Of a stretch of DNA of 26,431 nt, positions 11,569 through 24,495 are shown one piece after another. Position 1 is the first letter of the stretch, and each line of letters begins with the position of its first letter. This DNA is from an uncultured Syntrophaceae bacterium (GTDB lineage Bacteria; Desulfobacterota; SM23-61): contig CAYQWO010000007.1 of the NCBI GenBank assembly GCA_964421095.1, positions 1 through 26,431 on the forward strand. The letters are read 5' to 3'. Made by a program: the position numbers and the translations under genes. The notes beneath the pieces were generated by a model. It saw only the letters and a program-made list of their open reading frames with translations. It was not told the origin of the DNA and searched no databases.

Positions 11569-13131
11569 TCAGACAGGCATTATGCCATGTTTTTTCCAAG
11601 GCCGCTCCTCGATCCGCTTGTTCTCCAACATGAGCAGGGCGTCAATGATCAGGTGACGCGTGTCCTTGGGCTCGATGACCATGTCAATCAGTTGCTTGGA
11701 GGCAGAATAGTAAGGGGTCGAGAAGGTCTCCCGGTAGTATTGACTCTTTTCTTTGCGGAAGGCCTCTGGATCTTTAGCCGTTTTAATCTCTTTCCCATAG
11801 AGGATATTCACCGCTGGCTCAGCACCCATCATGGCCATCTCGGCCGTAGGCCAAACAAGAATTTGATCTGCTCCTGTTTCATGACAGCACATCCCAGGAA
11901 TGGATCCCCCGTAAGCCTTGCGCAGAATACACGTGATCTTGGGCACAGTTGATTCCGACCAGGCATAAAGCATTTTGGCCCCATGACGAATAATGCCCCC
12001 TGATTCCTGCTGAACCCCGGGCATATATCCGGGCACATCGACGAACATGATCAAGGGAATGTTGAAGGCATCGCAAAAGCGGATGAAGCGTGACCCTTTG
12101 TCTGAGGCGTTGATATCAATAGCTCCCGCGAAGACCCTTGGCTGATTGGCTACCACACCCACGGATCGACCTGCCAGGCGGGCAAATCCAATGATCATGT
12201 TCTGGGCATAACGGGGAAAGACTTCTAAAAAATCTCCATTATCGACCACTTCTTTGATCACCAGGCGCATGTCATAAGTCTTTTTTTGATCTGTAGGGAC
12301 AAAATAGGTGAGCTTCTCGCAAAGCCGCTTTGGGTCATCGCCGGTTTCAATCACCGGTGGCTTTTCCCGATTATTCAGGGGGAGATAGGGCAGCAGTTTC
12401 TTTATTAGATCCAGGCAGGCCTTGTCATTTTTGGCCGTAAAATGGGCGATCCCTGAAATGGTGCTATGAATTTTAGCTCCACCCAATTCCTCGAAAGAAA
12501 CCTCTTCCCCCATTACCTCTTTGACCACCGCTGGCCCGGTGATGAACATCTGGCTCGTCCCTTCTACCTGAAAGATAAAGTCCATTAGGGCAGGGGAGTA
12601 GACCCCGCCACCCGTACAAGGGCCCATGATGGCCGCAATCTGCGGAACGACCCCCGAGCTCGTTGTATTCTCAAAGAACATCTCCCCATAACCAGCCACG
12701 TTGTCCATACCCTCTTGCAGTCTCCCCCCGCCTGTATCGTTAAGGCCGATAATCGGAACGCCACTTTTCCTGGCGAGGCGAATGACATTGCAAATTTTTT
12801 GTCCGTGGGCTCGGCCGCAGGAGCCACCGAAGACGGTAGCATCCTGGGAATAGACAAAGACCGGTCGGCCATCGATTTTCCCATAGCCTGTGATTACCCC
12901 GTCTCCCAGGATCTTCTTTTTCTGCATGTCGAACTCGAAGCACTGGGTCTCGGCAAACATGTGAATTTCCCGAAAGGTCCCGGAATCCAGAAGATATTCC
13001 ACCCTTTCCCGGGCCGTCAATTTCCCAGCTTGGCGATGCCGCTCCAGCCTCTCCAAGCCACCTCCCTCCATAGCCAGCTTTTGCTTTTCGTGGAGCAGTT
13101 TGATCCGTTCATCCATTTCATGCTCATTCAT
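11569..13131 (-). CDS. Acyl-CoA carboxylase/decarboxylase carboxyltransferase subunit (PccB/MmdA family)
   Basis: GKLTARER, GDGVITGYG, DTGGGRLQEG, SGVVPQI, MFITGP, DAFNIPL, DVPGYMPG, PWKKHGIMP. Confidence 0.95.
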   Translation of the reverse strand: MNEHEMDERIKLLHEKQKLAMEGGGLERLERHRQAGKLTARERVEYLLDSGTFREIHMFAETQCFEFDMQKKKILGDGVITGYGKIDGRPVFVYSQDATVFGGSCGRAHGQKICNVIRLARKSGVPIIGLNDTGGGRLQEGMDNVAGYGEMFFENTTSSGVVPQIAAIMGPCTGGGVYSPALMDFIFQVEGTSQMFITGPAVVKEVMGEEVSFEELGGAKIHSTISGIAHFTAKNDKACLDLIKKLLPYLPLNNREKPPVIETGDDPKRLCEKLTYFVPTDQKKTYDMRLVIKEVVDNGDFLEVFPRYAQNMIIGFARLAGRSVGVVANQPRVFAGAIDINASDKGSRFIRFCDAFNIPLIMFVDVPGYMPGVQQESGGIIRHGAKMLYAWSESTVPKITCILRKAYGGSIPGMCCHETGADQILVWPTAEMAMMGAEPAVNILYGKEIKTAKDPEAFRKEKSQYYRETFSTPYYSASKQLIDMVIEPKDTRHLIIDALLMLENKRIEERPWKKHGIMPV

Positions 13132-13356
13132 AGAAAATCCTTTCTTCTAAGACTTAAACGTCACTGTCGTGCAAATTCGGTTTTTAGAAAATAGACCCTC
13201 CCATTGTTTTGTGATAAAGTGGTTTCGCCGAAGGAACTACTTCATAAACAGAGGAGAGTCAGTGATAAATAGACTTTGTAACATATTCGGGCAACTCTTA
13301 CAACTCTTTTCCGGAATCGAGTTTCGAAGGGAAAAGATATACAGTCTCCACCCGTA

Positions 13357-13385
13357 TTGACTCCTTTTTTCCAATTTGGTATAGT
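13357..13385 (+). promoter_or_regulatory. Near-consensus sigma70 promoter for the rightward operon
   Basis: TTGACT(13357-62)-N17-TATAGT(13380-85) with extended -10 TG at 13377-78. Confidence 0.65.
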
Positions 13386-13429
13386 CCCACCGAAATTCAG
13401 AACTTAGAACGCCGTTCGAAAAAGGAGGA

Positions 13430-13731
13430 TCATCTCCAAATTAGTTGAGGGCCAAAGAGCTGGTATATTTAAAACGTCCTGTGATTTCAGGGTCCCGGAA
13501 GAAAAGTCATATTGCTTGCAATCATAAGGCACATATCTCTCCCTAACTGTGGCGGGGGTTTCTGCTCTTTCTCCGAAGCTTTCTGATCATGCCCCCGCTG
13601 CGCTTTGCGGATGGCCAGCAGGGAGTTTATGGAGAGGGGATATCCCGCCGATGCTTGCGGCGCAATCTGCCTTTCCTTCCGGGCCCTTGCCAAGCTTTCA
13701 TTAAAAATTTGGTCAACTAATTTGGAGATGA
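13430..13731. mobile_element. 302-bp element bounded by perfect 19-bp inverted repeats (MITE-like, invertible segment or structured leader)
   Basis: TCATCTCCAAATTAGTTGA(13430-48) and TCAACTAATTTGGAGATGA(13713-31), plus nested imperfect inverted repeats; no transposase and no clear target-site duplication. Confidence 0.55.
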
Positions 13732-13767
13732 ATCAAAGAGTATAACTTTCGAGAGGTGGAACGGTAA

Positions 13768-14961
13768 ATGAGCAAGCCATTAGATATGGTGAAGGTACTC
13801 GACCTGACTCAGGCTTGGGCCGGTCCCATCGGGTCAATGCTTTTGGCAGATTTTGGCGCTGAAATCATCAAGGTCGAACCACCGGAAATCGGAGACCACG
13901 TCCGTGCCTGGACTCCTCCAGGCTGCAAGGGAGAGAGCCCCCATTTTTTGGCGGCCAATCGGAACAAGAAGAGCGTAACCCTCAACCTGAAAACTCGGGA
14001 GGGTAAGGAGATTTTTCTGCGGTTAGCCAGAGAAACCGATGTCCTCATGGAGAACTTTCGGCCCGGGGTCATGGAGAAGTTTGGCCTTCATTACAAAGCC
14101 ATCCAACCTATGAATCCACGCGTGATCTATTGCTCCATTTCGGGATTCGGGCAGACGGGGCCATCACGCAATGATGCCGCCTATGACCTCATTGTCCAGG
14201 GAATGGGGGGGGCCATGAGCGTCACTGGAGAAGAGGGAGGTAAGCCTTTGAAGCCCGGTATTGCCCAGGGAGACATCATGGGAGCCTTAGGAGGCACAAT
14301 CGCCATATTGGCAGCTCTATGCGGGCGGTCCCAAACAGGTCAAGGTTGCTACATCGATGTTTCGATGCTTGATATTCAGGTGATGGCCATGGGCCATCAG
14401 ATTGTGAACTATTTGATCAGCGGTAGCATTGCCAAGCCTTTGGGAACATCGCATCCTATTTTGATCCCTTATGAAACCTTTTCCACCAAGACTTTTTCCA
14501 TAAACATTGCGGCCAATACCCCTGGTCATTGGGCTGACCTGTGTTATATCCTGGGACTGCCAGAGTTAATCGATGAGGCGAAGTTCAAAAATGTGGAAGT
14601 CCGCATTCAACATCGGAGGGAACTCATCCCTCTAATGGAACAAGCCTTGCAACGCAAACCCGGGGAGGAATGGATCGCCCTACTCAAAGAAAAGGGGATT
14701 CCCTGTGGACCCATTAACGACGTTTCCATGGTGGTCAAGGAACCCCAGGTTCTCCATCGGGATATGATCATCGAGGTGGAAAATCGGAAGTTAGGCCGAG
14801 TCAAGATCCCGGGAATGCCTCTCCGAGTCTGCGGGATGACCGGAAAAGATCCAGTTACGCCTCCTCCGATGCATGGCGAACATAATGAAGAAATATTATG
14901 CGGTCGGCTGGGATACTCGAAGGAAGAATTAAAGAAGTTTCAAGAGAAAGGGGTCATTTAA
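13768..14961 (+). CDS. Family III (CaiB/BaiF/Frc) CoA-transferase
   Basis: VLDLTQAWAGP, GAEIIKVEP, NRNKKSVTLNLK, ENFRPG, YDLIVQGMGG, catalytic Asp in GDIMGA, PPPMHGEHN. Confidence 0.95.
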   Translation: MSKPLDMVKVLDLTQAWAGPIGSMLLADFGAEIIKVEPPEIGDHVRAWTPPGCKGESPHFLAANRNKKSVTLNLKTREGKEIFLRLARETDVLMENFRPGVMEKFGLHYKAIQPMNPRVIYCSISGFGQTGPSRNDAAYDLIVQGMGGAMSVTGEEGGKPLKPGIAQGDIMGALGGTIAILAALCGRSQTGQGCYIDVSMLDIQVMAMGHQIVNYLISGSIAKPLGTSHPILIPYETFSTKTFSINIAANTPGHWADLCYILGLPELIDEAKFKNVEVRIQHRRELIPLMEQALQRKPGEEWIALLKEKGIPCGPINDVSMVVKEPQVLHRDMIIEVENRKLGRVKIPGMPLRVCGMTGKDPVTPPPMHGEHNEEILCGRLGYSKEELKKFQEKGVI

Positions 14962-15008
14962 TGCCTGGAGCCTGGGAAAGAGCAGTTTAGAACACTGTGG
15001 GGAGAATT

Positions 15009-16613
15009 ATGGAAAAGAAGAAGGAAGAGAGTAAGAAACTTACTGAATCGGGCATTGAAGTAAAGCCTCTCTACAACCAAGAGGATCTCAAGAACTTAGA
15101 TACTTCTCGCGATATTGGGGAACCCGGTGAGTACCCCTATACGAGGGGAATCCATAGAGCGATGTATCGGGATCGATTATGGACGATGAGACAATACTCA
15201 GGATTCGGAACTCCCCGGGATTCCAACCAAAGATATAAATACCTGCTGCAGCAAGGACAAACAGGTTTAAGCGTGGCCCTGGACCTACCCACCCAGATGG
15301 GCTTAGACCCGGATGATCCCATGTCTCTGGGTGAAGTGGGGCGAGTCGGTGTTTGTATAAGTACATTGAAGGATATGGAGACTTTGTTTGATGACCTTTC
15401 TCTGGACAAAGTCACTACCTCCTTTACCATCAATGCTACCGCGGCCATGCTCTTAGCCATGTACCTATGCGTTGCGGAAAAACAGGGAGTTCCCTTTAAT
15501 AAAGTGGGAGGAACCATTCAGAATGATATCCTCAAGGAGTATGTGGCCAGAGGGGCCTGGATTTACCCCCCGGAATTTTCCGTGCGCCTGATTGTGGATA
15601 CGATCGAATACTGTGCGCAACATGTCCCGAGATTCAACTCCATCAGCATTTCCGGGGCTCACTTCCGAGATGCCGGGTGTACAGCAGTTCAGGAAGCGGC
15701 GTTCACCTTAGCCGATGCGCTTGAATATGTCCAGGCAGTTTTGGACCGGGGTATGGATATTGATGATTTTGCCCCGCAGTTGAGCTTCTATTTTTACACC
15801 CATAACAATTTTTTTGAGGAAGTGGCCAAATACCGAGCGATGAGGAAACTCTGGGCCAAATACATGAAGGAGAAGTTTACAGCCAAAAACCCGAGGTCAT
15901 GGTTGTTCCGCTTTGGAGTTGTCTGTGGAGGAAGCACTTTAGTGCCCCAACAGTATGAGATTAATACCATCCGAGTTTCTTATCAAGCTCTGGCCAGTGT
16001 CCTGGGAGGAGTTCAATCCATGTTTACCTGCGCCATGGATGAACCTTTCTCCATTCCTACCGAAGAAACAGCCAGATTAGCTCTAAGGATTCAGCAAGTT
16101 CTTGGTTACGAGACCGGGGTGGCGGATACCGCAGACCCCCTGGGGGGTTCATACTTCGTTGAATCTTTAACCAAAGAGATGGGAGAGAGGATTGAAGAGC
16201 TGATAAGGAGGATCGAAGCGAGAGGGGGTATGATCAAATCGATCAAAGAAGGCTTTATCCAAAAGGAAATCCTCGAAGAAGCTTATAAGAAAGAGAAACG
16301 GATGAGAGCAGGGGAGACGGTGGTCGTAGGTGTCAATCAATTCACCATTGAAGAGGAGGAGAAGGAATACAACCTCCATGAATACAACCCCCAGGTCGCC
16401 AGAGACCAGATCCAGTTGTTGAATCAATTGAGGAGGACAAGAGATAAAGAGAAAGTAAAAAGGGACATAGAACGGCTGAGAGCCGCCGGAAGAAATAATG
16501 AGAATCTAATGCCTTACCTCATAGAAGCGTTTAGGGACTACGTCAGTTTAGGGGAGGTCTGCCAGGTCTTTAAGGAAGAATTTGGAATTTTCGAGCAGCC
16601 TACCGTTATCTGA
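15009..16613 (+). CDS. Acyl-CoA mutase large subunit, MCM family, atypical active site (mutase 2)
   Basis: PGEYPYTRG, WTMRQYSGF, GLSVALDLPTQMG, GTIQNDILKEYVARG, SISGAHFRDAG, DPLGGSYFVESLT; ATG 15009 follows GGAG. Confidence 0.95.
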   Translation: MEKKKEESKKLTESGIEVKPLYNQEDLKNLDTSRDIGEPGEYPYTRGIHRAMYRDRLWTMRQYSGFGTPRDSNQRYKYLLQQGQTGLSVALDLPTQMGLDPDDPMSLGEVGRVGVCISTLKDMETLFDDLSLDKVTTSFTINATAAMLLAMYLCVAEKQGVPFNKVGGTIQNDILKEYVARGAWIYPPEFSVRLIVDTIEYCAQHVPRFNSISISGAHFRDAGCTAVQEAAFTLADALEYVQAVLDRGMDIDDFAPQLSFYFYTHNNFFEEVAKYRAMRKLWAKYMKEKFTAKNPRSWLFRFGVVCGGSTLVPQQYEINTIRVSYQALASVLGGVQSMFTCAMDEPFSIPTEETARLALRIQQVLGYETGVADTADPLGGSYFVESLTKEMGERIEELIRRIEARGGMIKSIKEGFIQKEILEEAYKKEKRMRAGETVVVGVNQFTIEEEEKEYNLHEYNPQVARDQIQLLNQLRRTRDKEKVKRDIERLRAAGRNNENLMPYLIEAFRDYVSLGEVCQVFKEEFGIFEQPTVI

Positions 16614-16655
16614 TCTGAGCTTCTGATTTCAGAAATTAAGGGAGAATCGTTCATC

Positions 16656-17066
16656 GTGGAAAAAGAAAGGAAGATAAGGTTTTTAATGGCCAGCCCTGGT
16701 TTGGACGGACATGACAGAGGTGCCAAGGTGGTTGCCCGGGCGTTGAAAGATGCAGGGATGGAAGTTATCTACGTGGGAATCCACCGCTCGGCAGAAGAAA
16801 TTGTAAGGGCTGCGGTTCAGGAGGATGTGGATTTTATTGGCTTGAGCATGCTTTCCGGAGCCCACCTCATATTGACCGAACAGGTTTTAAAGAAAATGGC
16901 CGAGCAAAAAATTGATGACATTCCCCTCATCGCGGGTGGGACCATTCCCAAAAAAGATGTTGAGAAATTAAAGAAGATGGGAGTCGCCCTTGTTTTTCCC
17001 ACCCAAGCACCTTTGGATCGGATTATTTCCGGGATAAAAGAATACCGATTGCCCCAAAGACCTTAA
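16656..17066 (+). CDS. B12-binding (small) subunit of split acyl-CoA mutase
   Basis: [15 protein letters not shown] (DxHxxG), GLSMLSGAH, AGGTIP; GTG start. Confidence 0.95.
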   Translation: MEKERKIRFLMASPGLDGHDRGAKVVARALKDAGMEVIYVGIHRSAEEIVRAAVQEDVDFIGLSMLSGAHLILTEQVLKKMAEQKIDDIPLIAGGTIPKKDVEKLKKMGVALVFPTQAPLDRIISGIKEYRLPQRP

Positions 17067-17120
17067 ACGGGGCAGGGGTAGATGAAGCCCTATAAAATCA
17101 GGCTCAAAAGGGGGAAGAAG

Positions 17121-18353
17121 ATGGAAAAAAGGAAAATTGGTAAATTGGGGTGGGTCTTCATGATGGTCTTATTTTTCGGTTTTTTGACGGATGGATATTT
17201 ATCTCCACCACCGACCTATGCTCAGGATACCATTCGTTTTGGGGCGGCCTTGTCTTTCACCGGAAGGGCGGCGCGGGAAGGACGCCTGAGCCGCCATGGC
17301 ATGGAACTTTGGCGCGATGTAGTGAACCAGAAGGGCGGGATTAGAGTTGGAAATAAGAATTACAAAGTGGACATTCTCTTTTACGATGACGAGAGCGACC
17401 CCAAGACCACGGCCAAGTTAGTGGAAAAGCTCATTACGGAAGATGGGATCAAATTTATCCTGGGCCCTTACGGGAGTACCACCAGCTTTGCCGCCAGTGC
17501 CATCACCGAGAAATACAGGGCGCTCATCGTGGTCGGGATGGGCTCTGCAGAAGCCATCTTCGAGATAGGCTTCAAGTATCTATTCGGCCCTCTGACCACA
17601 GCTTCCCATTACCTCACGAACTCTCTCAAATTATGTGCCGCCCAAAAACCCAAACCGGAGACGGTAGCCATCATATCCAAGAACGAGCTCTTTTCCATGC
17701 AGTCGGCAGAAGGGGGCAAAAAGACGGCAGAGGATCTGGGTTTCAAGGTGGTCTATTTTGAGAAGTATCCCCCAGATGCCAAAGACCTCTCCTCGGTCAT
17801 AAGCATCGTGCGGGCGAAAAACCCGGATATCTTTATCGTCTCCGGTCATTTCGCCGATAGTTTCCTTGCCGTGAAACAGGCGAAAGAACTCAAGTTAAAC
17901 CCCAAAGTAATCATCGGCAATGTCGGGGTAGCGACTCCGGACTTCATTACTTCCCTGAAGGAGGACGCGGAAAATATTTTAGGACCCACCCAGTGGGTGC
18001 CGAATCTGAAGACCCGTGACTCCGTCTTTGGCTCCGCAGAGGACTATACCCGCCTCTATGAGAAAAAATATAGTTATATCCCGGACTATCACTCTGCCGG
18101 ACAAAGTTCCGCCCCCCTGATCTTCCAGCTCGCCATCATGAAAGCCCAATCTCTGGAGGTGGATAAAGTAAGGGAGGCCATGGCCGCACTGGACACGGAT
18201 AGCTTCTTTGGCCACATCAAGTTCAATGAGAAAGGGATAAACATAGCCAAGGGAATGGCCGTGCTGCAAATTCAAGCCGGAAAACACGTCCCCATCCACC
18301 CCCCCGAAGTGGCTCTGGGAAAGCTTATTTACCCCAAACCGCCGTGGAAGTAG
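17121..18353 (+). CDS. livK: ABC transporter substrate-binding protein, LivK/HAAT family
   Basis: Signal peptide, IRFGAALSFTG, YDDESDP, ILGPYGS, FFGHIKFNEKG; heads the livHMGF set. Confidence 0.85.
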   Translation: MEKRKIGKLGWVFMMVLFFGFLTDGYLSPPPTYAQDTIRFGAALSFTGRAAREGRLSRHGMELWRDVVNQKGGIRVGNKNYKVDILFYDDESDPKTTAKLVEKLITEDGIKFILGPYGSTTSFAASAITEKYRALIVVGMGSAEAIFEIGFKYLFGPLTTASHYLTNSLKLCAAQKPKPETVAIISKNELFSMQSAEGGKKTAEDLGFKVVYFEKYPPDAKDLSSVISIVRAKNPDIFIVSGHFADSFLAVKQAKELKLNPKVIIGNVGVATPDFITSLKEDAENILGPTQWVPNLKTRDSVFGSAEDYTRLYEKKYSYIPDYHSAGQSSAPLIFQLAIMKAQSLEVDKVREAMAALDTDSFFGHIKFNEKGINIAKGMAVLQIQAGKHVPIHPPEVALGKLIYPKPPWK

Positions 18354-18364
18354 GAGGATAATCT

Positions 18365-19240
18365 TTGATCTACCAGATCCTTTCCAATGGGCTTTTGCTG
18401 GGGGGCCTCTTTGCGGTGGTGGCCATGGGCTTTTCCATCGTCTGGGGGGTCATGAACCTGATCAACCTGGCCCATGGAGCTTTCATCATGCTGGGGGCCT
18501 ATATCACCTTTTGGCTTTTTGAGCTATGGGGTATAGACCCCTTCCTTTCCATCCCGATTTCCATGGTTATCCTTTTTGTCGTTGGCTATCTTGTGCAGCG
18601 GCATGTAATTAACTTGGTGGTGAAAGCCCAGGTATTTATGACGCTCATTTTGACCTTCGGGCTGGAGATTCTCATCATGAATCTGAGCACCGTAGCCTGG
18701 ACGGGGAATTATCGTTCCGTTACCACCCTTTACTCAGGAGCTAATATCGAGATAGGCCCTCTCATCATTCCCTCGGTCCGCTTGGCGATTTTTTTGATTG
18801 CCTTAGGCATAACCGCCGGGCTCTATTTCTTCATCAGCAAAACCAAGACCGGCAATGCCATTAAGGCCACCAGTTTGGAAAAGGAGGCTGCTCAACTGGT
18901 GGGGATCGAGATTGGCCGGATGTATGCGATCACTTTTGCTATCGGAGGGGCCCTGGCGGGAGCGGCCGGGTCTCTCTTAGCCATCATATCCGCCATATCC
19001 CCCTACATGGGAGGGCCTTATACCTTAAAGGCTTTCGTGATCTGCGTTCTCGGGGGTTTAGGGAGCATTATCGGGTTGATCATCGGGGGCATAACCCTGG
19101 GAATGGCCGAATCGGTGGGGACTCTCCTTCTGGGCCCGGGCTACGCCGATGCCATCTCCTTTGTGATTCTGGTGGTTATTCTGGCCATCAGGCCCGAAGG
19201 ATTATTGGGAAAGAAGTTCTTTGCGGAAGTGAAGCACTGA
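18365..19240 (+). CDS. livH: HAAT-family ABC permease LivH
   Basis: GVMNLINLAHG, TGNAIKA, KAFVICVLGGLGS, RPEGLLG; TTG start 7 nt after AGGAGG. Confidence 0.9.
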   Translation: MIYQILSNGLLLGGLFAVVAMGFSIVWGVMNLINLAHGAFIMLGAYITFWLFELWGIDPFLSIPISMVILFVVGYLVQRHVINLVVKAQVFMTLILTFGLEILIMNLSTVAWTGNYRSVTTLYSGANIEIGPLIIPSVRLAIFLIALGITAGLYFFISKTKTGNAIKATSLEKEAAQLVGIEIGRMYAITFAIGGALAGAAGSLLAIISAISPYMGGPYTLKAFVICVLGGLGSIIGLIIGGITLGMAESVGTLLLGPGYADAISFVILVVILAIRPEGLLGKKFFAEVKH

Positions 19241-19260
19241 GCGGGGTAGAGAGAGATAAC

Positions 19261-20238
19261 GTGAATCTTTCGAGCATGACTCCTGGAAAGAAAAAGGCGT
19301 TGTTGTTGGTCCTTTGCGCTTTTTTGGTGGCGGCTCCCGCTCTTCTCACAGGGTACTGGATAAGAACGCTGACGGACATATTCATGTTTGCCATATTGGC
19401 CGCCAGCTGGAATCTCATTGCGGGCTATTGCGGTTATCCCGCTTTTGGTAACGTGGTCTTCTTCGGCCTGGGGGCCTATACGACAGGGATTCTCATGACC
19501 AAACTTCAGTTCTCGCTCCTTTCGGCAGTAGCTTCGGGGGGAATTCTGGCGGTGGTTCTGGCGGTGCTTTTGGGTTTCCCCTTACTGCGGCTCAAAGGGC
19601 ACTATTTTGCCATCGCCACTCTGGGAGTAAATGAAGCGCTGAGAGAAGTCGTTATCAACCTTACTGACCTTACGGGAGGGGGCTACGGAATCACTCTGCC
19701 GATTCTTCCTGGAAAGGTTGAATTCATCCTGGCCTTATTCTATTTCCTCATGCTGGGGCTTCTGGCGGCGGTGATCTTGCTTACCCAATTCATTTCGCAA
19801 AGCCGCTTCGGCTTTGGCTGCCGGGCGATTCGCGCGGACGAAGATGCGGCGGCTGTGCTCGGAATCCATACAACGAAATACAAGATCATAGCCTGGAGCT
19901 TGAGCGCCTTGTTTACGGGCTTGGCCGGAGGGTTATACGCTGCGTGGATGACGTATATCGATCCGGTCAGCGTCTTTGACATGAGCATTGCCGTCAAATT
20001 CTGCATCATGGTCCTGCTGGGAGGGGCGGGAACGGTTTGGGGGCCTGTTATAGGAGCTTTTATCCTCGAAATGATTTCCGTAATGGTCTGGTCCAAATTC
20101 GTCATCCTGCATGCCGCGATCCTGGGATTCATCATCATTCTGGTGGTCATTTTGATGCCTCGAGGGTTTATGCAGTTTATCCGGGGCCGTTTGAGCATGG
20201 CGGTTTTGCTGGCCAACATCAAGGAGAATCGAATCTGA
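19261..20238 (+). CDS. livM: HAAT-family ABC permease LivM
   Basis: SWNLIAGYCG, LRLKGHYFAIATLG, RAIRADEDAA, LGGAGTVWGP, PRG. Confidence 0.92.
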   Translation: MNLSSMTPGKKKALLLVLCAFLVAAPALLTGYWIRTLTDIFMFAILAASWNLIAGYCGYPAFGNVVFFGLGAYTTGILMTKLQFSLLSAVASGGILAVVLAVLLGFPLLRLKGHYFAIATLGVNEALREVVINLTDLTGGGYGITLPILPGKVEFILALFYFLMLGLLAAVILLTQFISQSRFGFGCRAIRADEDAAAVLGIHTTKYKIIAWSLSALFTGLAGGLYAAWMTYIDPVSVFDMSIAVKFCIMVLLGGAGTVWGPVIGAFILEMISVMVWSKFVILHAAILGFIIILVVILMPRGFMQFIRGRLSMAVLLANIKENRI

Positions 20239-21002
20239 TGGAAGTTTTGTTAGAAGGCGAGCGGGTAAGCAAATTTTTTGGGGGGCTGGAAGCGATCCAC
20301 GATCTTTCTTTCCAGGTCCACAAAGGAGAAATTACCGGCCTCATCGGGCCGAACGGAGCCGGGAAAACGACCCTGATCAACTTGATCACCGCTATTTACC
20401 CTGTATCGACGGGGAAAATCCGCTTTAAAGGAAAGGACATCACCCAAACGAAAGCCTACGAAATTGGCGAGATGGGGATCGCCCGAACGTTCCAGATTGC
20501 CAAACCTTTCTCAGGAATGACCGTGGGAGAGAATATCCTGATCGGAGCCTGGTTCGGAAAGTCAGGGATGAAGCGGACCAAGCAGGAGGCCTTGAAGAAA
20601 GTAGACGAGGTCCTGGAACTGGTCGGCCTTAGGAAGAAACAAGGCGTTTTAGTGGAGCAGACGACAATCCCCGACAGGAAAAGATTGGAACTGGGCAAAG
20701 CCCTGGCCATGGAGCCAGAGCTCCTGTTTCTGGATGAAGTAATGGCTGGGCTGACCCCGAAAGAAACGGAAGACGTGATGGCTTTGGTGAAGGAGTTAAA
20801 TCGGAAAGGAATTACCATTCTGGTCATCGAACACGTGATGAAAGCGATCATGGGCATCTCGGACCGGATCCTGGTCCTCGATCAAGGGAAGTTGCTCGCC
20901 CAGGGAACACCCGAAGAAATTTCTAAAAATGAAAGGGTCATTGGAGCCTACCTGGGGGCCAGGTACGCTCAAAAGAGTGGAATCAGGGTTAGCGATGCTT
21001 GA
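20238..21002 (+). CDS. livG: HAAT-family ABC ATPase LivG
   Basis: Walker A GPNGAGKTT, ARTFQ, LFLDEVMAGL, IEH; ATG overlaps the livM TGA. Confidence 0.93.
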   Translation: MEVLLEGERVSKFFGGLEAIHDLSFQVHKGEITGLIGPNGAGKTTLINLITAIYPVSTGKIRFKGKDITQTKAYEIGEMGIARTFQIAKPFSGMTVGENILIGAWFGKSGMKRTKQEALKKVDEVLELVGLRKKQGVLVEQTTIPDRKRLELGKALAMEPELLFLDEVMAGLTPKETEDVMALVKELNRKGITILVIEHVMKAIMGISDRILVLDQGKLLAQGTPEEISKNERVIGAYLGARYAQKSGIRVSDA

Positions 21003-21699
21003 AATAAGAGCGATTGAAGTGGCTTATGGAGACATCCAAGTCCTGTGGGGAATCAACTTGGAGGTCCACCAAGGGGAGATTGTCTCCATTATTGGATCCA
21101 ATGGGGCGGGAAAATCGACCCTGATTCGGACCATCTCCGGCTTGATCCGGCCCTTTCGGGGGGACATCTTTTATAGGGGGACGATGATTACCCATCAGCC
21201 TCCCAGTGAGATCGTAATGAGAGGAATTTCCCAGGTCCCGGAAGGAAGAAAACTGTTCTCCGGCATGACGGTCCAAGAAAATTTGATGATGGGATCCTAT
21301 TGCCGGAATAACCGCCAGGAGATAGAAGAGGACCTCAATTTCGTCTATCATCTTTTTCCCCGGCTGGCGGAAAGAAGAAAGCAGATTGCCGGAACTTTGA
21401 GTGGCGGAGAGCAGCAGATGTCGGCTATTGGCCGGGCTTTGATGTCCCGTCCCCAACTGCTTCTCATCGATGAACTCTCCCTCGGTCTTTCTCCTCTTTT
21501 AGTGGATAACCTCATGGAGGCCATCGGCCAGGTCCATCGAAGGGGGACAAGCATCCTGCTGGTCGAGCAGGACGTGCAAATTGCTCTGGAGCATGCCCAT
21601 CGGGGCTATGTGCTGGAGACTGGCCGTATTGTCCTTTCCGGACTATCCAAGGACTTGCTGGAAAATCCCGAGGTTAGGAGGTCGTACCTAGGGATTTGA
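20995..21699 (+). CDS. livF: HAAT-family ABC ATPase LivF
   Basis: GSNGAGKST, QVPEGRKLF, LSGGEQQM, IDELSLGLSP, LVEQ. Confidence 0.95.
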   Translation: MLEIRAIEVAYGDIQVLWGINLEVHQGEIVSIIGSNGAGKSTLIRTISGLIRPFRGDIFYRGTMITHQPPSEIVMRGISQVPEGRKLFSGMTVQENLMMGSYCRNNRQEIEEDLNFVYHLFPRLAERRKQIAGTLSGGEQQMSAIGRALMSRPQLLLIDELSLGLSPLLVDNLMEAIGQVHRRGTSILLVEQDVQIALEHAHRGYVLETGRIVLSGLSKDLLENPEVRRSYLGI

Positions 21700-21749: not shown

Positions 21750-23000
21750 ATGCCTAAATTTTTATTCAAACCTGCATCTTCCTGGGGCGTCGTGGCGATT
21801 TCCTTCGTCAATATCGCCCTGGCCTACGGCCTGAACTTCTCCTTTTCCGTGTTCTTCGTAGCGATCTTGGAGGAGTTTAAATGGAGCAGGGCCAGTATAG
21901 CGGGGGCTTTCTCGTTATCGTCTCTCGTATTAGGAATCGGGTCCTGGCCGGGAGGAAGGCTTATTGACCGATTCGGACCCCGAAAAATGTTGATGGTCGG
22001 GGCCATCATCCTTTCTTTGGCCACGATGGCCAGTGCGCTGATCCGGGAGGTCTGGCATCTTTACTTTCTTTTTGGAATCTTAGCTGGCCTGGGCATTTGC
22101 GGTCTGGGGTGGGTGCCCAATTCGGTCCTGCTTTCCAACTGGTTCGTGAAAAACCGGGGCAGCATGGTGGGCATCGCCTTCTCCGGGATGGGAATCGGAA
22201 TTCTTGCTGTGGGACCTTCGGCCCAATACCTTATATCCAGCCTGGGATGGCGAATGGCTTACTTGGTCTTTGGCCTGGCGGTCTTGGCGATCCTGCTGCC
22301 GTTAAACCTTTTTTTGCAGGACCGGCCGAATGGAAAACTGAAAAGTGAAGGCTCGGACCCAGATCAACAAAACCCGCTTCCCCAGGCCGAGAGCCCCAGC
22401 GAGAAAGGGGATTGGACCTTAAACCGTTCTATGAAAACCCTGCCTTTCTGGGCGCTCTTTATCTCTTTTTTTCTCATTCCTTTAGGCATTTATCCTGTAG
22501 CCATCCACCAGGTGGCCTACATCATCGACCAGGGCTACAGCAAGATATTGGCTGCTTTTGTCTTCGGAACCATGGGTTTATTGAGCACGGTCGGAAGGCC
22601 CCTTTTCGGAGCTCTCTCCGACCGCATCGGCAGAGAGAAAGCCGTCACCTGGAGCTTTATCAGTTCCATCGCCGGAATTCTCCTTCTCATTTTCTTGCCC
22701 GCCCTAAAAGCGGTATTCTGGCTCTACCTTTACGCCATCCTCTTCGGATTGGGCTTTGGAGCGCGCGGTCCCATCGTGGCGGCCATGCTGGCCGATAGAT
22801 TTTCGGGAAAATATTTTGGGAGTATCTATGGCTTCATTAACATCGGCAATGGGATGGGAGGGGCATTGGGTCCCTGGCTGGGAGGGGTTCTTTACGATTC
22901 GACCGGCAGCTACAGGATTCCCTTCCTTTTATGTATCCCGGTTCTGGTACTGGCCTGCTTCCTTTTCTGGGTAGCTGGGTCCGTCAGAGAGAAGAAATGA
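21750..23000 (+). CDS. MFS transporter (OFA/monocarboxylate-like)
   Basis: GRLIDRFGPR and GALSDRIGRE motif A, WFVKNRG, about 12 TM segments. Confidence 0.9.
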   Translation: MPKFLFKPASSWGVVAISFVNIALAYGLNFSFSVFFVAILEEFKWSRASIAGAFSLSSLVLGIGSWPGGRLIDRFGPRKMLMVGAIILSLATMASALIREVWHLYFLFGILAGLGICGLGWVPNSVLLSNWFVKNRGSMVGIAFSGMGIGILAVGPSAQYLISSLGWRMAYLVFGLAVLAILLPLNLFLQDRPNGKLKSEGSDPDQQNPLPQAESPSEKGDWTLNRSMKTLPFWALFISFFLIPLGIYPVAIHQVAYIIDQGYSKILAAFVFGTMGLLSTVGRPLFGALSDRIGREKAVTWSFISSIAGILLLIFLPALKAVFWLYLYAILFGLGFGARGPIVAAMLADRFSGKYFGSIYGFINIGNGMGGALGPWLGGVLYDSTGSYRIPFLLCIPVLVLACFLFWVAGSVREKK

Positions 23001-23032
23001 GGCAAGAAATGATTTTGCTTTTCCATTCGCCC

Positions 23033-23061
23033 TTGATTTGGTAGGATGTCGGGAAAATAAT
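23033..23061 (+). promoter_or_regulatory. Candidate sigma70 internal promoter for the TAXI-TRAP genes
   Basis: TTGATT-N17-AATAAT, followed by a GCACC-CAT-GGTGC hairpin before the AGGAGG RBS. Confidence 0.4.
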
Positions 23062-23106
23062 TGGATCAGCACCCATGGTGCCAATTTAGGAGAGGAGGTT
23101 AAGAAA

Positions 23107-24255
23107 ATGAGATTTTTAGGAAAGAGCCTTGTTTCCGGGGGGATCATTTTGGGTCTCTTATTGGCTATGATAACCCCGGCACTTGCTGCCGAAAAAACCT
23201 CTGGATTACCGGAGATGATGACCTGGAGTGCGTTCGATGTCGGCTCCAGAGGCTATGTTCAGGGGGCAGCAATATCGAATGCCTTAACCAAAAAATACAA
23301 AACGAAAGTGAGAATCCTGCCCTCGGGTACATCGATCGGCCGGATGCAGCCATTGAAAACTGGGGCGGCCAGTTACGGCCTTCTGGCCGACGAAGTTTTC
23401 TTTGCCGTAGAAGGCCTTTATGAATTCTCGCATATTGATTGGGGCCCGCAGGATCTAAGGGTTGCCCTGGCCCATCCGGCCCCCGTAAGCATAGTGGCCA
23501 CCGCCAAAAGTGGTATCAAAACACCCAAGGATTTTAAAGGGAAAAGGATTGCGTGGATTCCCGGGTCTTCGACGAGTAACGTAAAAACAGAGGCCTACCT
23601 TGCTTTTGCGGGGTTAACCTGGAAAGATGTCCAGAGAGTTGATATGCCCAGTTATGCCTCCGCCATGAAAGGTTTGATTGAGGGCAAGGTGGATGCCATG
23701 AATGTGGGGATCACAGCTCCGACCCTTTACGAACTTGAAACCTCACCCATGGGCATCTTCTGGCCAGAGTTTCCCCCTTCCGACAAGGAGGGTTGGAAAA
23801 GAATGAATGCCATCGCTCCTTGGCTTTCTCCTGGCAAATGCGAAATTGGACCGGGAATTAAAAAGGGACAACCTAAGGATCTTATTTCTTACACGTACCC
23901 TCAGTTGGTAACTTATGCCAAACAAGATGCCGGGGAAGTGTACGCCCTGGTGCAAGGGTTTGATGAAACCTTTGATATGTATAAGGATGCGGACCCAGAG
24001 TTGCCCGAATGGGCTATTTCCAGGTCTGGCCGAACCCCGGCCGGCGCCCCCTTTCACGAAGGGGCGATCCGTTATCTGAAAGAAAAAGGAATCTGGACCG
24101 CCGCCTCCGACCAATGGAACCAGAAATTTTTGGAGCGGGTAAAGAAACTACAAGAGGCCTGGAAAGTCACGCTCCAAGAAGCGAAGAGCAAAGGGATTTC
24201 GGAAAAAGATTTTCCTGAATTTTGGCTTAACAAGAGAAAGGGAATCAAGGATTAA
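23107..24255 (+). CDS. TAXI-family TRAP solute receptor
   Basis: Signal peptide, FDVGSRGY, DFKGKRIA, LIEGKVDA, APFHEGAIRYLKE; ATG 23107 follows AGGAGG. Confidence 0.88.
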   Translation: MRFLGKSLVSGGIILGLLLAMITPALAAEKTSGLPEMMTWSAFDVGSRGYVQGAAISNALTKKYKTKVRILPSGTSIGRMQPLKTGAASYGLLADEVFFAVEGLYEFSHIDWGPQDLRVALAHPAPVSIVATAKSGIKTPKDFKGKRIAWIPGSSTSNVKTEAYLAFAGLTWKDVQRVDMPSYASAMKGLIEGKVDAMNVGITAPTLYELETSPMGIFWPEFPPSDKEGWKRMNAIAPWLSPGKCEIGPGIKKGQPKDLISYTYPQLVTYAKQDAGEVYALVQGFDETFDMYKDADPELPEWAISRSGRTPAGAPFHEGAIRYLKEKGIWTAASDQWNQKFLERVKKLQEAWKVTLQEAKSKGISEKDFPEFWLNKRKGIKD

Positions 24256-24276
24256 GAATATATCTGTAAATACCGT

Positions 24277-24362
24277 TCCCCCCTTTGTAAAGGGGGGTAG
24301 GGGGGATTTATCAGCGGTTTGGCAAGGCAAATCCCCCTAAGTCCCCCTTTTCCAAAGGGGGA
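24277..24362. repeat. Head-to-head pair of REP-like palindromes (BIME-like)
   Basis: CCCCCCTTT-GT-AAAGGGGGG, then GGGGGATTT...AAATCCCCC, then TCCCCCTTT-TCC-AAAGGGGGA. Confidence 0.75.
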
Positions 24363-24413
24363 CTTCGCCCAGCAGCTTATTTACGGACAAGCTCTAAGGG
24401 TTTCTTGAAATAG

Positions 24414-24443
24414 GGCAGGGAGATCGCTCGGGATCTCCCCGCC
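24414..24443. repeat. Intergenic hairpin upstream of the fused TRAP permease
   Basis: GGGAGATC-GCTCGG-GATCTCCC 8-bp stem extended by GGC/GCC after one mismatch; no U-tract. Confidence 0.45.
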
Positions 24444-24495
24444 GAAATCTCTGGGAATGTTTGAGCAAATTGGCCTGCCGGAATAAAGGAAAGGT

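What the first reader, a model, noticed from the sequence alone, without database searches (positions are those of the whole stretch)
15009..16613. Mutase 2 has Ala in place of the conserved active-site Tyr of SGYH, plus an Ecm-like His-to-Gly change
Seen: RQY (Tyr89 equivalent, codon 15195), QND and VARG (Gln197, Arg207 equivalents) are intact, so a carboxylate-bearing CoA ester is expected. However, SISGYH becomes SISGAH (GCT at 15657-59, at least two nucleotide changes from a Tyr codon, so not a simple read error). RFHTQT becomes RFGVVC, SLHTNS becomes SMFTCA, and QEAG becomes RDAG. Established: Tyr243 helps control the radical in MCM, and His328-to-Gly is a pocket-enlarging hallmark of ethylmalonyl-CoA mutase. 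Inference: the cavity accommodates a bulkier side chain than any characterised acyl-CoA mutase class I recall, so this may be a new subfamily.
Basis: partly seen in the sequence, partly recalled or inferred. Interest (0 to 1): 0.75.

Follow-up and report, generated by a model that had tools for sequence, protein, structure and literature searches.

The report
Unstudied B12 acyl-CoA mutase clade
This gene encodes a vitamin-B12 enzyme that rearranges CoA-bound acids; it belongs to a large, strictly conserved and apparently unstudied branch of the methylmalonyl-CoA mutase family that keeps the clamp for an acidic substrate but has a rebuilt, greasier pocket, so its substrate is probably a bulkier substituted succinate that nobody has identified.

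Summary
The 534-aa protein (15009-16613) is the large subunit of a split AdoCbl acyl-CoA mutase. Aligned to P. shermanii MCM, it keeps Tyr89, Gln197, Arg207, His244 and Glu370. It has Tyr243Ala, His328Gly, Gln330Val, Thr331Cys, His364Phe and Asn366Cys.

This is not a degenerate copy. All 240 relatives collected carry Ala243/Gly328/Val330/Phe364, against Tyr/His/Gln/His in 65 canonical split MCMs. The clade is monophyletic (support 1.0). It spans Desulfobacterota-like MAGs, Binataceae, Methylomirabilis, mycobacteria, Streptomyces, Paraburkholderia, Diaphorobacter, Marinobacter and Sulfitobacter.

Its usual operon is IclR, crotonase, MutL, MutS, family III CoA-transferase, MeaB and a carboxylate transporter. 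The window has a variant: SUGCT-like CoA-transferase, MutL, MutS and transporters, with no adjacent crotonase or MeaB.

Most likely it rearranges a succinyl/malonyl-type CoA ester with a hydrophobic substituent, in a module built like E. coli Sbm/ScpABC. The substrate is unknown.

His328Gly is shared with ccr-linked ECM candidates, but by convergence.

No curated model or open paper names the clade. I could not obtain IaaGH or ActD/MatB sequences to compare.

This scan has already flagged the same clade in other genomes, including one a follow-up agent named as Cupriavidus necator.

The parts
15009..16613 (+). Large (substrate-binding, TIM-barrel) subunit of a split AdoCbl acyl-CoA mutase, 'Ala243/Gly328/Val330/Phe364' clade (P0001). 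A GTG at 14997 is an alternative start.
   Evidence: PF01642 at 678.7 bits and TIGR00641 at 679 bits. Best PDB hits are HCM 4r3u (531 bits) and human MCM (427 bits). SD plus ATG.
15195..15197 (+). Tyr63 codon, equivalent to Tyr89 of P. shermanii MCM (carboxylate clamp, retained)
   Evidence: Alignment to 1req_A; invariant in the clade.
15549..15551 (+). Arg181 codon, equivalent to Arg207 (carboxylate clamp, retained)
15657..15662 (+). Ala217-His218 (GCT CAC), equivalent to Tyr243-His244: Tyr replaced by Ala, His retained
   Evidence: Ala is at 100% in 240 clade members; Tyr is at 100% in 65 canonical MCMs.
15915..15926 (+). Gly303-Val304-Val305-Cys306, equivalent to His328-x-Gln330-Thr331: pocket wall rebuilt
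16023..16031 (+). Phe339-Thr340-Cys341, equivalent to His364-Thr365-Asn366
16656..17066 (+). Small B12-binding subunit (136 aa), with the DxHxxG motif DGHDRG at aa 17-22 (16704-16721)
   Evidence: PF02310 and TIGR00640. Best PDB hits are 2yxb and the HCM small subunit 4r3u_C; the motif is visible in the alignment.
13768..14961 (+). Family III CoA-transferase, SUGCT-like, 47 bp upstream of the mutase gene; predicted succinyl-CoA:dicarboxylate CoA-transferase that activates the substrate
   Evidence: PF02515 at 404 bits. Best PDB hit is succinate-hydroxymethylglutarate CoA-transferase 9br7 (337 bits), against 102 bits for the alpha-methylacyl-CoA racemases. Asp169 is invariant. The adjacency to the mutase is conserved in G007, G009, L195 and across phyla.
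17082..21699 (+). LivKHMGF-type ABC transporter, 15 bp after the small subunit; probable uptake system
   Evidence: Pfam. A Liv-type ABC system also flanks the module in Methylomirabilis L011 and in several metagenome loci.
21750..26430 (+). MFS transporter, TAXI/NMT1-type binding protein and fused TRAP permease (the permease is cut by the window end)
   Evidence: Pfam. Homologues follow the mutase genes in relative G007.
11569..13131 (-). Divergent stand-alone carboxyltransferase (MmdA/PccB-like); a possible decarboxylase for the substituted malonyl-CoA product. The link is weak.
   Evidence: PF01039; TIGR01117 at 760 bits, below its 999-bit cut-off. A carboxyltransferase lies about 4 kb upstream in two mycobacterial loci, but none is present in relative G009 and only 1 of 74 metagenome loci has one.

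Best explanation
Genes 13768-17066 encode a three-part catabolic core.

1. A SUGCT-like family III CoA-transferase loads an imported dicarboxylic acid onto CoA, most likely from succinyl-CoA.
2. The two-subunit AdoCbl mutase then performs the usual radical 1,2-shift of the thioester group.

The mutase belongs to a distinct, widespread and uncharacterised clade. It keeps the carboxylate clamp (Tyr89, Arg207, Gln197), the general-acid His244 and the Glu370 equivalent. It replaces Tyr243, His328, Gln330, Thr331, His364 and Asn366 with Ala, Gly, Val, Cys, Phe and Cys.

Inferred: the substrate is a succinyl-CoA/malonyl-CoA pair carrying a hydrophobic substituent larger than the methyl group handled by ECM. 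That is, 2-R-succinyl-CoA interconverting with (R-methyl)malonyl-CoA, or a 2,3-disubstituted form.

In most carriers the module also holds a one-Glu crotonase and MeaB. This gives the same four functions as E. coli scpA-argK-scpB-scpC (mutase, G-protein chaperone, crotonase-fold decarboxylase, CoA-transferase). The pathway would therefore be a substituted succinate to acyl-CoA plus CO2 route.

In this genome the crotonase and MeaB are not adjacent. A neighbouring carboxyltransferase or an unlinked enzyme would have to do the decarboxylation.

Shown: family, clade, conserved residues, conserved gene neighbours. Inferred: direction, substrate class, decarboxylation step.
For: - Family and residue mapping.
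- Signature in all 120 best hits, and at 100% conservation in 240 sequences against 65 canonical MCMs.
- Monophyly, with support 0.999 and 1.0.
- The genome also has a canonical MCM (signature YFMQRYHHQTHN, G000:C21) and an ICM-type paralogue, so this copy is not the housekeeping enzyme.
- The small subunit has DxHxxG.
- The CoA-transferase is SUGCT-like with an invariant Asp169.
- In 74 metagenome loci holding this type of MutL: crotonase directly upstream in 43/49, MutS first downstream in 54/56, CoA-transferase second downstream in 28/37, MeaB third downstream in 18/29, then TctC/TRAP/TAXI/Liv transporters.
- The same operon is annotated in Paraburkholderia, Diaphorobacter, Marinobacter and Sulfitobacter.
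- The associated crotonases keep GGGAE but have Gln in place of the second catalytic Glu, which is atypical for a hydratase.
- The CoA-transferase-MutL-MutS order of the window recurs in its closest relatives.
- No NCBIfam equivalog reaches its cut-off for the mutase, the CoA-transferase or the crotonase.
Against: - There are no structural or biochemical data. The AF2 model is unreliable in the pocket, so pocket enlargement rests on residue sizes only.
- His364Phe and Met165Phe add bulk, so the net change in volume is unknown.
- Some replaced residues may contact 5'-deoxyadenosine rather than substrate; this is from my memory of the MCM structures and was not checked.
- The window lacks the crotonase and MeaB. 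The genome has no close orthologue of the clade-linked crotonase (best 36% identity), although the MAG is only 80% complete.
- The crotonase is not specifically similar to E. coli ScpB: that enzyme is not among the listed PDB hits (best 60 of 96) or the best 25 NCBIfam hits. Its role as a decarboxylase is a guess.
- Only 3 of 17 genomes of the class carry the orthologue.
Confidence: 0.6

Rival explanations
1. It is isofunctional with, or orthologous to, IaaGH, the (2-aminophenyl)succinyl-CoA/(2-aminobenzyl)malonyl-CoA mutase of anaerobic indoleacetate degradation. The aryl ring would sit in the widened pocket.
For: IaaGH is a split mutase that works with a family III CoA-transferase (IaaL, phenylsuccinyl-CoA transferase) and a binding-protein-dependent uptake system (PMC8360864). 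The same logic is seen here. The substrate keeps a free carboxylate and carries a bulky hydrophobic group.
Against: The window and the typical operon of the clade contain no IaaF-type acyl-CoA dehydrogenase, hydantoinase-like genes or aryl-CoA ligase. Carriers are mostly aerobic generalists. Windows that earlier agents of this scan labelled IaaGH-like did not appear among the look-alikes listed for either P0001 or the Paraburkholderia orthologue; this is weak evidence. The IaaG sequence could not be obtained, so the point is untested.
Confidence: 0.12
2. It is a catabolic methylsuccinyl-CoA/ethylmalonyl-CoA mutase, doing the same reaction as ECM from a different lineage. It would feed methylsuccinate or related C5 dicarboxylates to butyryl-CoA.
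For: It shares His328Gly with ccr-linked ECM candidates. The CoA-transferase is SUGCT-like or mesaconate-transferase-like, which points to C5 dicarboxylates. TRAP, TTT and TAXI transporters fit small dicarboxylates. A crotonase-fold ethylmalonyl-CoA decarboxylase exists in mammals (ECHDC1, PMC8473548 abstract).
Against: ECM handles the extra methyl while keeping Tyr243 and Gln330, whereas this clade removes both. The known bacterial methylsuccinate routes use methylsuccinyl-CoA dehydrogenase and no B12 enzyme (PMC13491972). In C. necator, methylsuccinate accumulated when mcd1 and mcd2 were deleted. An earlier agent of this scan reported the clade in C. necator, but I did not check that, and whether B12 was supplied in that study is unknown.
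Confidence: 0.13
3. It acts on a longer (C5/C6) dicarboxylyl-CoA, for example glutaryl- or 2-hydroxyglutaryl-CoA converted to methylsuccinyl- or beta-methylmalyl-CoA. This would be ICM-like chemistry, with the carboxylate one carbon further from the radical centre.
For: The nearest solved relative of the CoA-transferase (SUGCT) uses glutarate and hydroxymethylglutarate (molecule name). Extra room around positions 243 and 328 could take an extra methylene. The chemistry is feasible on paper; this is inference.
Against: The clamp residues are in the same sequence positions as in MCM. The new pocket residues are all apolar. The operon has no follow-up enzymes such as a dehydrogenase or lyase.
Confidence: 0.08
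4. It is simply a divergent methylmalonyl-CoA mutase, or an inactive or degenerate paralogue.
For: Databases call it methylmalonyl-CoA mutase family protein. The carboxylate clamp and His244 are intact.
Against: It scores 562 bits against the 876-bit cut-off of the MCM equivalog NF006944. Six pocket positions differ and are fixed across phyla. A canonical MCM is present in the same genome. The gene sits in a dedicated, conserved operon with its own regulator and transporters. The frame is open, with 74-91% identical orthologues.
Confidence: 0.05

Closest known systems
Methylmalonyl-CoA mutase (MCM, EC 5.4.99.2; P. shermanii 1REQ, human 2XIJ, M. tuberculosis 6OXC; split archaeal/Firmicute-type MCM)
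   Same: Same fold and family (PF01642 large subunit plus B12-binding subunit with DxHxxG). Tyr89, Gln197, Arg207, His244 and Glu370 equivalents are retained. About 50-57% identity to split canonical MCMs.
   Different: Tyr243Ala, His328Gly, Gln330Val, Thr331Cys, His364Phe, Asn366Cys, Met165Phe, Phe117Leu and Glu247Asp. It forms a separate clade, scores below the MCM equivalog cut-off, and has a different operon.
2-Hydroxyisobutyryl-CoA mutase HcmAB (Aquincola tertiaricarbonis, PDB 4R3U)
   Same: Best-scoring solved structure for both subunits (531 and 121 bits). Same split architecture.
   Different: HCM has Ile at the Tyr89 position, Asp at 117 and Gln at the Arg207 position. It keeps Tyr243, His328, Gln330, His364 and Asn366 (alignment). 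This protein has the opposite pattern.
Ethylmalonyl-CoA mutase (Ecm/MeaA); here represented by mutases immediately downstream of ccr in two actinomycete genomes (G047, G084)
   Same: Carboxylate clamp retained. His328 is replaced by Gly, followed by Val (RYGVQ against RFGVV).
   Different: The ECM candidates keep Tyr243 and Gln330. They sit in open frames of about 670 aa that extend roughly 170 aa past the mutase domain (the B12 domain was not scanned), are about 36% identical to P0001, and branch with the fused MCMs (support 0.975), far from this clade. There is no ccr near the window gene.
IaaGH, phenylsuccinyl-CoA/benzylmalonyl-CoA mutase of the iaa operon (Aromatoleum aromaticum; assigned from the pathway, PMC8360864)
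   Same: Split mutase partnered with a family III CoA-transferase that activates a substituted succinate. The substrate has a carboxylate and a bulky apolar group.
   Different: No iaaF-type dehydrogenase and no other iaa genes are present here. The sequence relationship is not testable with the data I could reach.
E. coli Sbm/ScpA-ArgK-ScpB-ScpC succinate-to-propionate operon (from my knowledge of Haller et al. 2000; not held in the library)
   Same: The clade's typical operon has the same four functions: mutase, MeaB-type GTPase, crotonase-fold enzyme and CoA-transferase.
   Different: The mutase is split and has a rebuilt pocket. The CoA-transferase is family III, not family I. The crotonase is not ScpB-like by sequence. 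In the window itself the crotonase and MeaB are missing from the locus.
ActD/MatB, proposed hexylmalonyl-CoA/2-pentylsuccinyl-CoA mutases of actinonin and matlystatin biosynthesis (PMC5719088)
   Same: Described there as split, HCM-subclass mutases acting on a malonyl/succinyl-CoA pair with a long alkyl substituent.
   Different: Those are biosynthetic, and are clustered with a CCR, an epimerase and NRPS genes. No such genes are near this gene or in the Streptomyces sp. N50 clade member's locus, which is catabolic. Their sequences were not obtainable.

Membership tests
AdoCbl-dependent acyl-CoA mutase superfamily (PF01642 + PF02310) | Large-subunit TIM-barrel domain matching PF01642/TIGR00641 above the cut-off | tested here: met
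   678.7 bits (cut-off 22.1) and 679.2 bits (cut-off 303.8), full-length match.
AdoCbl-dependent acyl-CoA mutase superfamily (PF01642 + PF02310) | Cobalamin-binding partner with the base-off/His-on DxHxxG motif | tested here: met
   Separate 136-aa subunit 42 bp downstream; TIGR00640 at 143 bits; DGHDRG at aa 17-22.
Methylmalonyl-CoA mutase (EC 5.4.99.2) | Carboxylate clamp Tyr89 + Arg207 (with Gln197 and His244) | tested here: met
   Tyr63, Arg181, Gln171 and His218 align to these residues of 1req_A.
Methylmalonyl-CoA mutase (EC 5.4.99.2) | Canonical pocket residues Tyr243, His328, Gln330, His364 and Asn366, invariant in solved MCMs and in 65 split MCMs | tested here: not met
   Ala, Gly, Val, Phe and Cys at these positions.
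Methylmalonyl-CoA mutase (EC 5.4.99.2) | Score above the NCBIfam equivalog cut-off (NF006944) | tested here: not met
   562.3 bits against a cut-off of 876. Note that the model is for the fused form.
Ethylmalonyl-CoA mutase (Ecm/MeaA) | His328 replaced by Gly with Tyr243 and Gln330 kept; long open frame reaching past the mutase domain (C-terminal B12 domain expected from memory, not scanned here); ccr next to the gene (as seen in ccr-linked candidates) | tested here: not met
   Only the Gly328 feature is shared. Position 243 is Ala and 330 is Val, the architecture is split, there is no ccr in the window, identity is 36%, and the candidates fall in a different clade.
2-Hydroxyisobutyryl-CoA mutase (HcmAB) | Ile at position 89/90 and Asp at 117; no Arg at 207 | tested here: not met
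   Tyr63, Leu91 and Arg181 here. The HCM chain 4r3u_A reads RQIAGF, DFDMPT and AQKE at these places.
Isobutyryl-CoA mutase / IcmF / PCM | Phe at position 89 and Gln at 207 | tested here: not met
   Tyr and Arg here. An ICM-type paralogue (FFMQQ...) exists elsewhere in the genome.
IaaGH arylsuccinyl-CoA mutase | Sequence orthology to IaaG of Aromatoleum | not testable with these tools
   No IaaG sequence could be fetched.
IaaGH arylsuccinyl-CoA mutase | iaa context: IaaF-type decarboxylating acyl-CoA dehydrogenase plus IaaL-type family III CoA-transferase | tested here: inconclusive
   A family III CoA-transferase is adjacent. No acyl-CoA dehydrogenase is among the window's 23 ORFs scanned or in the gene strings of the clade; ACADs were not in my reference set, but no extra conserved gene appears.
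Uncharacterised 'Ala243/Gly328/Val330/Phe364' mutase clade (named here only for convenience) | Signature residues and placement inside the monophyletic clade | tested here: met
   Signature YLFQRAHGVCFC; clade support 0.999 and 1.0.
Uncharacterised 'Ala243/Gly328/Val330/Phe364' mutase clade (named here only for convenience) | Typical operon: crotonase, MutL, MutS, CoA-transferase, MeaB | tested here: inconclusive
   MutS and the CoA-transferase are adjacent (with the CoA-transferase upstream). The crotonase and MeaB are absent from the 26-kb window. The single MeaB is on another contig.

The most novel reading that the evidence does not exclude
The clade catalyses a rearrangement not yet described for any purified acyl-CoA mutase. 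The substrate would be a succinyl/malonyl-type CoA ester with a bulky apolar (branched alkyl, aryl, or 2,3-bridged/disubstituted) group. The clade would be the core of a widespread, unrecognised 'substituted succinate to acyl-CoA + CO2' pathway, present in model bacteria such as Paraburkholderia (shown here) and, according to earlier agents of this scan, Cupriavidus necator.
Probability: 0.45. Interest if true: 0.7.

Novelty: new variant of a known kind. Interest (0 to 1): 0.55.

Why it matters
Only a handful of acyl-CoA mutase specificities (MCM, ICM/IcmF, ECM, HCM/RCM, PCM) have been characterised biochemically. Each new one has opened both a metabolic pathway and a tool for making branched building blocks.

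This clade is large, with well over 240 clusters at 90% identity in the two searches. Its pocket is fixed across at least six phyla, and it comes with a compact, self-contained operon in easily grown bacteria. The question 'what does it rearrange?' can therefore be answered directly by expression, assay and knock-out.

Databases currently label all members 'methylmalonyl-CoA mutase (family protein)'. That label is probably wrong about the substrate.

The host MAG and its 16 class relatives carry many mutase genes each: at least 11 different pocket signatures in this one genome. This lineage is therefore a rich source of further untested specificities.

Tried and rejected
- The genome-contig scan with the clade alignment chose a generic pattern (QNDILKEY). 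It returned mostly canonical MCMs; only 7 of 80 loci were of the clade.
- The AF2 model from an 11-sequence alignment was poor (pLDDT 62; pocket segments below 50). Model coordinates are not exposed to scripts, so no pocket volume could be computed.
- Papers by Erb 2008, Kurteva-Yaneva 2015 and Jost 2015 are not held. The roles of Tyr243, His328 and Gln330 are therefore cited from memory only.
- My own recollection of a Y243A MCM mutant structure is unreliable. 5req scores lower than 1req against a query that has Ala at that position, so I do not use it.
- Looking for ECM in plasmid records failed. The Nonomuraea record was too large. The second Streptomyces hit looks IcmF-like (about 500-aa N-terminal extension, 34% identity), and the Microvirga pair is two adjacent mutase-family genes of MutAB type. 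ECM candidates were finally found by ccr synteny.
- Two weak CCR paralogues (G069, G099) had no mutase nearby, so no MatB/ActD-like gene was found.
- The Streptomyces sp. N50 clade member (Ser at 243) sits in a catabolic cluster, not an actinonin-type one.
- Rfam found no cobalamin riboswitch or any other RNA family in the window.
- The promoter/terminator scan was at background level.
- One script call was lost; its output files were read.
- The tally of CCR-positive genomes includes five unpublished genomes (G025, G042, G048, G050, G054). No claim here rests on them: only G047 and G084 were used, and a region of G065 that was also fetched gave no mutase match.
Full report
**What is in the sequence.** Window 15009-16613 (+) translates without a stop to a 534-aa protein, P0001. 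It matches PF01642 (678.7 bits) and TIGR00641 (679 bits) end to end.

RQY is at aa 61-63, QND at 171-173, VARG at 179-182, SISGAH at 213-218, RDAG at 220-223, RFGVVC at 301-306 and SMFTCA at 337-342. Codon 15657-15659 is GCT and the next codon is CAC. A GGGAG box lies 5 nt before ATG 15009, and most close homologues are also 534 aa, so ATG 15009 is the likely start.

I fixed the numbering on the HMMER alignment to P. shermanii MutB (1req_A, chain index +1):

| This protein | P. shermanii MCM |
|---|---|
| Tyr63 | Tyr89 |
| Gln171 | Gln197 |
| Arg181 | Arg207 |
| Ala217 | Tyr243 |
| His218 | His244 |
| Gly303 | His328 |
| Val305 | Gln330 |
| Cys306 | Thr331 |
| Phe339 | His364 |
| Cys341 | Asn366 |
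| Glu345 | Glu370 |

Human, M. tuberculosis and P. shermanii MCM and Aquincola HCM all read SGYH, R-x-H-x-Q-T and SLHTN at these places.

**It is a conserved clade, not a broken copy.** All 120 best hits in the 5.8-billion-protein collection share the signature. A tight group at 74-89% identity comes from 'Deltaproteobacteria' MAGs. A very large group at 60-63% includes Binataceae and the cultured Firmicute Metallumcola ferriviriculae.

A second search, seeded with a Paraburkholderia member, returned another 120 clusters at 73% identity or more from Pseudomonadota.

I compared 240 clade sequences with 65 canonical split MCMs from many phyla. Fifteen positions separate the two sets. Six are fixed at 100% on both sides: Met165Phe, Tyr243Ala, Glu247Asp, His328Gly, Gln330Val and His364Phe. 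The others include Phe117Leu, Thr331Cys and Tyr210Trp. Position 117 is the one where HCM has its specificity-determining Asp.

In ML trees of 164-166 family members the clade is monophyletic, with support 0.999 and 1.0. Its nearest neighbours are other unnamed pocket variants.

The library of 50%-identity representatives shows that the 328-331 and 364-366 segments vary enormously across the family, while Tyr89/Arg207 are mostly kept. This pattern fits these segments being substrate-specific walls. That reading is an inference.

**Genomic context in the window.** The mutase gene is the second of three tightly spaced genes:
- a family III CoA-transferase (13768-14961);
- the large subunit;
- a 136-aa B12-binding subunit (16656-17066) with DGHDRG.

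A LivKHMGF-type ABC system starts 15 bp later. It is followed by an MFS transporter, a TAXI-type binding protein and a fused TRAP permease.

The CoA-transferase is closest to human succinate-hydroxymethylglutarate CoA-transferase (SUGCT, 9br7, 337 bits) and far from the alpha-methylacyl-CoA racemases (102 bits). It has Asp169, which is invariant among the mutase-linked transferases. From memory, this is the catalytic Asp of formyl-CoA transferase.

A stand-alone MmdA/PccB-like carboxyltransferase lies divergently upstream.

**Context elsewhere.** In annotated replicons of Paraburkholderia largidicola, Diaphorobacter, Marinobacter and Sulfitobacter the clade member sits in a shared core operon. 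The order is crotonase, MutL, MutS, family III CoA-transferase, then a MeaB-type GTPase. The GTPase is Pfam-confirmed in Paraburkholderia, annotated 'GTP-binding protein' in two others and 'hypothetical' in Marinobacter. In three of the four an IclR regulator lies upstream and a TRAP, TTT or TAXI binding protein follows.

A degenerate DNA pattern for FRFGVVCGG pulled 80 metagenome loci, of which 74 hold this type of MutL. The neighbours were counted where enough DNA was available:

| Position relative to MutL | Gene | Count |
|---|---|---|
| Directly upstream | crotonase | 43/49 |
| First downstream | MutS | 54/56 |
| Second downstream | CoA-transferase | 28/37 |
| Third downstream | MeaB | 18/29 |
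| Beyond | transporters | various |

Other arrangements:
- Methylomirabilis has LivKHMGF, CoA-transferase, crotonase, MutL.
- Mycobacteria and a Streptomyces have MutL, MutS, a luciferase-like monooxygenase and the CoA-transferase, with a crotonase and thiolase(s) nearby. The mycobacterial locus adds YrbE/MlaE permeases and a carboxyltransferase, and the Streptomyces locus adds acyl-CoA ligases. This is a lipid-type catabolic setting.

The associated crotonases keep the GGGAE glutamate but have Gln in place of the second catalytic Glu. The exception is the mycobacterial one.

The window's own sub-lineage (orthologues at 78-91% identity in G007, G009, L193 and L195) shows MutL-MutS wherever the DNA reaches, with the CoA-transferase directly upstream in G007, G009 and L195. 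It lacks an adjacent MeaB. One member (L193) has a crotonase 2 kb downstream.

This genome has no close orthologue of that crotonase (best 36% identity) and a single MeaB on another contig. The MAG is 80% complete.

The carboxyltransferase link is weak. It is absent from relative G009, and only 1 of 74 metagenome loci has one.

**How it most likely works.**

Shown: a complete AdoCbl mutase (barrel plus B12 subunit) with the MCM carboxylate clamp and His244, partnered with a dicarboxylate-type CoA-transferase and carboxylate transporters.

Inferred:
1. An imported dicarboxylate is thioesterified, with succinyl-CoA or the pathway product as CoA donor.
2. The mutase shifts the thioester group between neighbouring carbons, as MCM does.
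3. The resulting substituted malonyl-CoA is decarboxylated to an ordinary acyl-CoA.

The typical operon holds a mutase, a MeaB, a crotonase-fold enzyme and a CoA-transferase. To my knowledge this is the same four-function set as E. coli scpA-argK-scpB-scpC, which turns succinate into propionate. This is why I read the module as a 'substituted succinate decarboxylation' route.

The pocket changes point to a larger and apolar substituent:
- Tyr243Ala and His328Gly remove bulk.
- Gln330Val, Thr331Cys and Asn366Cys remove polarity.
- His364Phe and Met165Phe add apolar bulk.

ECM candidates handle one extra methyl with His328Gly alone, keeping Tyr243 and Gln330. Opening a second wall at position 243 therefore suggests either a bigger substituent or a second substituted position.

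Which acid it is remains unknown. I rank the candidates as follows:
1. Alkyl- or aryl-succinyl-CoA forms as a class.
2. Methylsuccinyl/ethylmalonyl-CoA, the IaaGH reaction, and a C5/C6 glutaryl-type substrate.
3. Plain MCM activity, which is unlikely because the genome has a canonical MCM and an ICM-type paralogue as well.

**Comparison with known families.** The protein fails the defining pocket features of MCM, HCM and ICM, and it scores below the MCM equivalog cut-off.

For ECM I had no reference sequence, so I located ccr (TIGR01751) in actinomycete genomes and read the mutase immediately downstream in two of them. However, these proteins sit in roughly 670-aa frames that extend well past the mutase domain, are 36% identical to P0001, and group with fused MCMs (support 0.975) far from this clade. 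The shared Gly is therefore convergent.

Two proposed mutases for bulky substituents exist in the literature:
- IaaGH, for arylsuccinyl/benzylmalonyl-CoA (PMC8360864);
- ActD/MatB, for hexylmalonyl/2-pentylsuccinyl-CoA (PMC5719088).

I could not obtain either sequence. The gene contexts differ: no IaaF-type dehydrogenase and no CCR/NRPS genes are present here.

No NCBIfam equivalog covers the mutase, the transferase or the crotonase. RefSeq and UniRef names are generic. The only open paper using a term of the form 'X-succinyl-CoA mutase' for such an enzyme is the IaaGH one (the one other hit is a methylmalonic-acidemia proteomics paper). No open paper combines the operon's components.

**Earlier notes of this scan.** Other agents had already met this clade in other genomes, including one they named as Cupriavidus necator. 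They reached the same 'uncharacterised dicarboxylyl-CoA mutase operon' verdict. I treated these notes as leads. The operon statistics, the specificity-position analysis, the trees and the ECM test above are my own.

**Verdict.** The 'new subfamily' reading is supported in the sense of a distinct, conserved clade that appears unstudied. The 'bulkier side chain' reading is plausible but unproven.

This window is an atypical member by locus, since it lacks an adjacent crotonase and MeaB, and it comes from an uncultured lineage. The experiments are better done on the Paraburkholderia or Cupriavidus orthologues.

Noticed in passing
whole genome G000 (e.g. C21:10063-11607, C317, C484, C22, C387, C153, C130, C590, C328, C174; window 930-2672): The 4-Mb MAG carries 12-13 PF01642 genes with at least 11 different pocket signatures. 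These include a canonical MCM, an ICM type (Phe/Gln) and nine unnamed variants, most of which keep Tyr89/Arg207. All 16 relatives in its class also have many (7-20 first-look candidates each).
   Followed up: partly
window 930-2672 (-) with 325-726 (-): A second split mutase ('mutase 1') has yet another pocket (signature YFFQRYH-P-T-V-Y) and a lower Pfam score (457 bits). It lies next to TctABC, a PcaB/XcbD-like lyase, and MFS and TRAP transporters.
   Followed up: no
L113, L114, L116, L117, L122, L123, L125, L126 (relatives G003-G016); own genome C317: One paralogue type reads SVGAYH ... RFHTQTGG ... QSLAVCSYDE, so His364 and Asn366 are changed and Ser241-Gly242 reads Gly-Ala. It recurs across the class and in the own genome, which makes it another conserved unnamed specificity.
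   Followed up: no
L092:9095-9898, L094:8168-8947, L095:8135-8911, L096:8186-8959, L011:5311-6279: The crotonases linked to this mutase clade keep the first catalytic Glu (GGGAE) but have Gln where enoyl-CoA hydratases have the second Glu. They are probably not plain hydratases.
   Followed up: partly
L273:4585-6609 (-) and L274:4286-6295 (-), next to ccr (G047:C2:287673-288866; G084:C2:269363-270556): The ccr-adjacent mutases (ECM candidates) read NICSYH, RYGVQVNS and RAVQLPAWNE. Tyr243 is kept, His328 is Gly, His364 is Gln and Asn366 is Pro. This is a usable ECM signature.
   Followed up: yes
window 13131-13768: A 637-bp intergenic region separates the divergent carboxyltransferase from the CoA-transferase/mutase genes. 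Another first-stage note describes a 302-bp fold-back element at 13430-13731. The best promoter-like site (TTGACT-17-TATAGT with an extended TG) is at 13357-13385, but the scan as a whole was at background level.
   Followed up: no
L063:8254-9918 and L063:11988-12941; L091:11990-12946: In mycobacteria the clade member is flanked by two YrbE/MlaE (Mce-type) permease genes. In mycobacteria and Streptomyces a luciferase-like monooxygenase lies between MutS and the CoA-transferase. This hints at a lipid-like substrate in Actinomycetota.
   Followed up: partly
L091 (Streptomyces sp. N50, NZ_CP137550.1 861779-863332): A clade member has Ser instead of Ala at position 243 and reads RFGCVAGG. P0119 has Ala at position 328. 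Small variations within the clade therefore exist.
   Followed up: no
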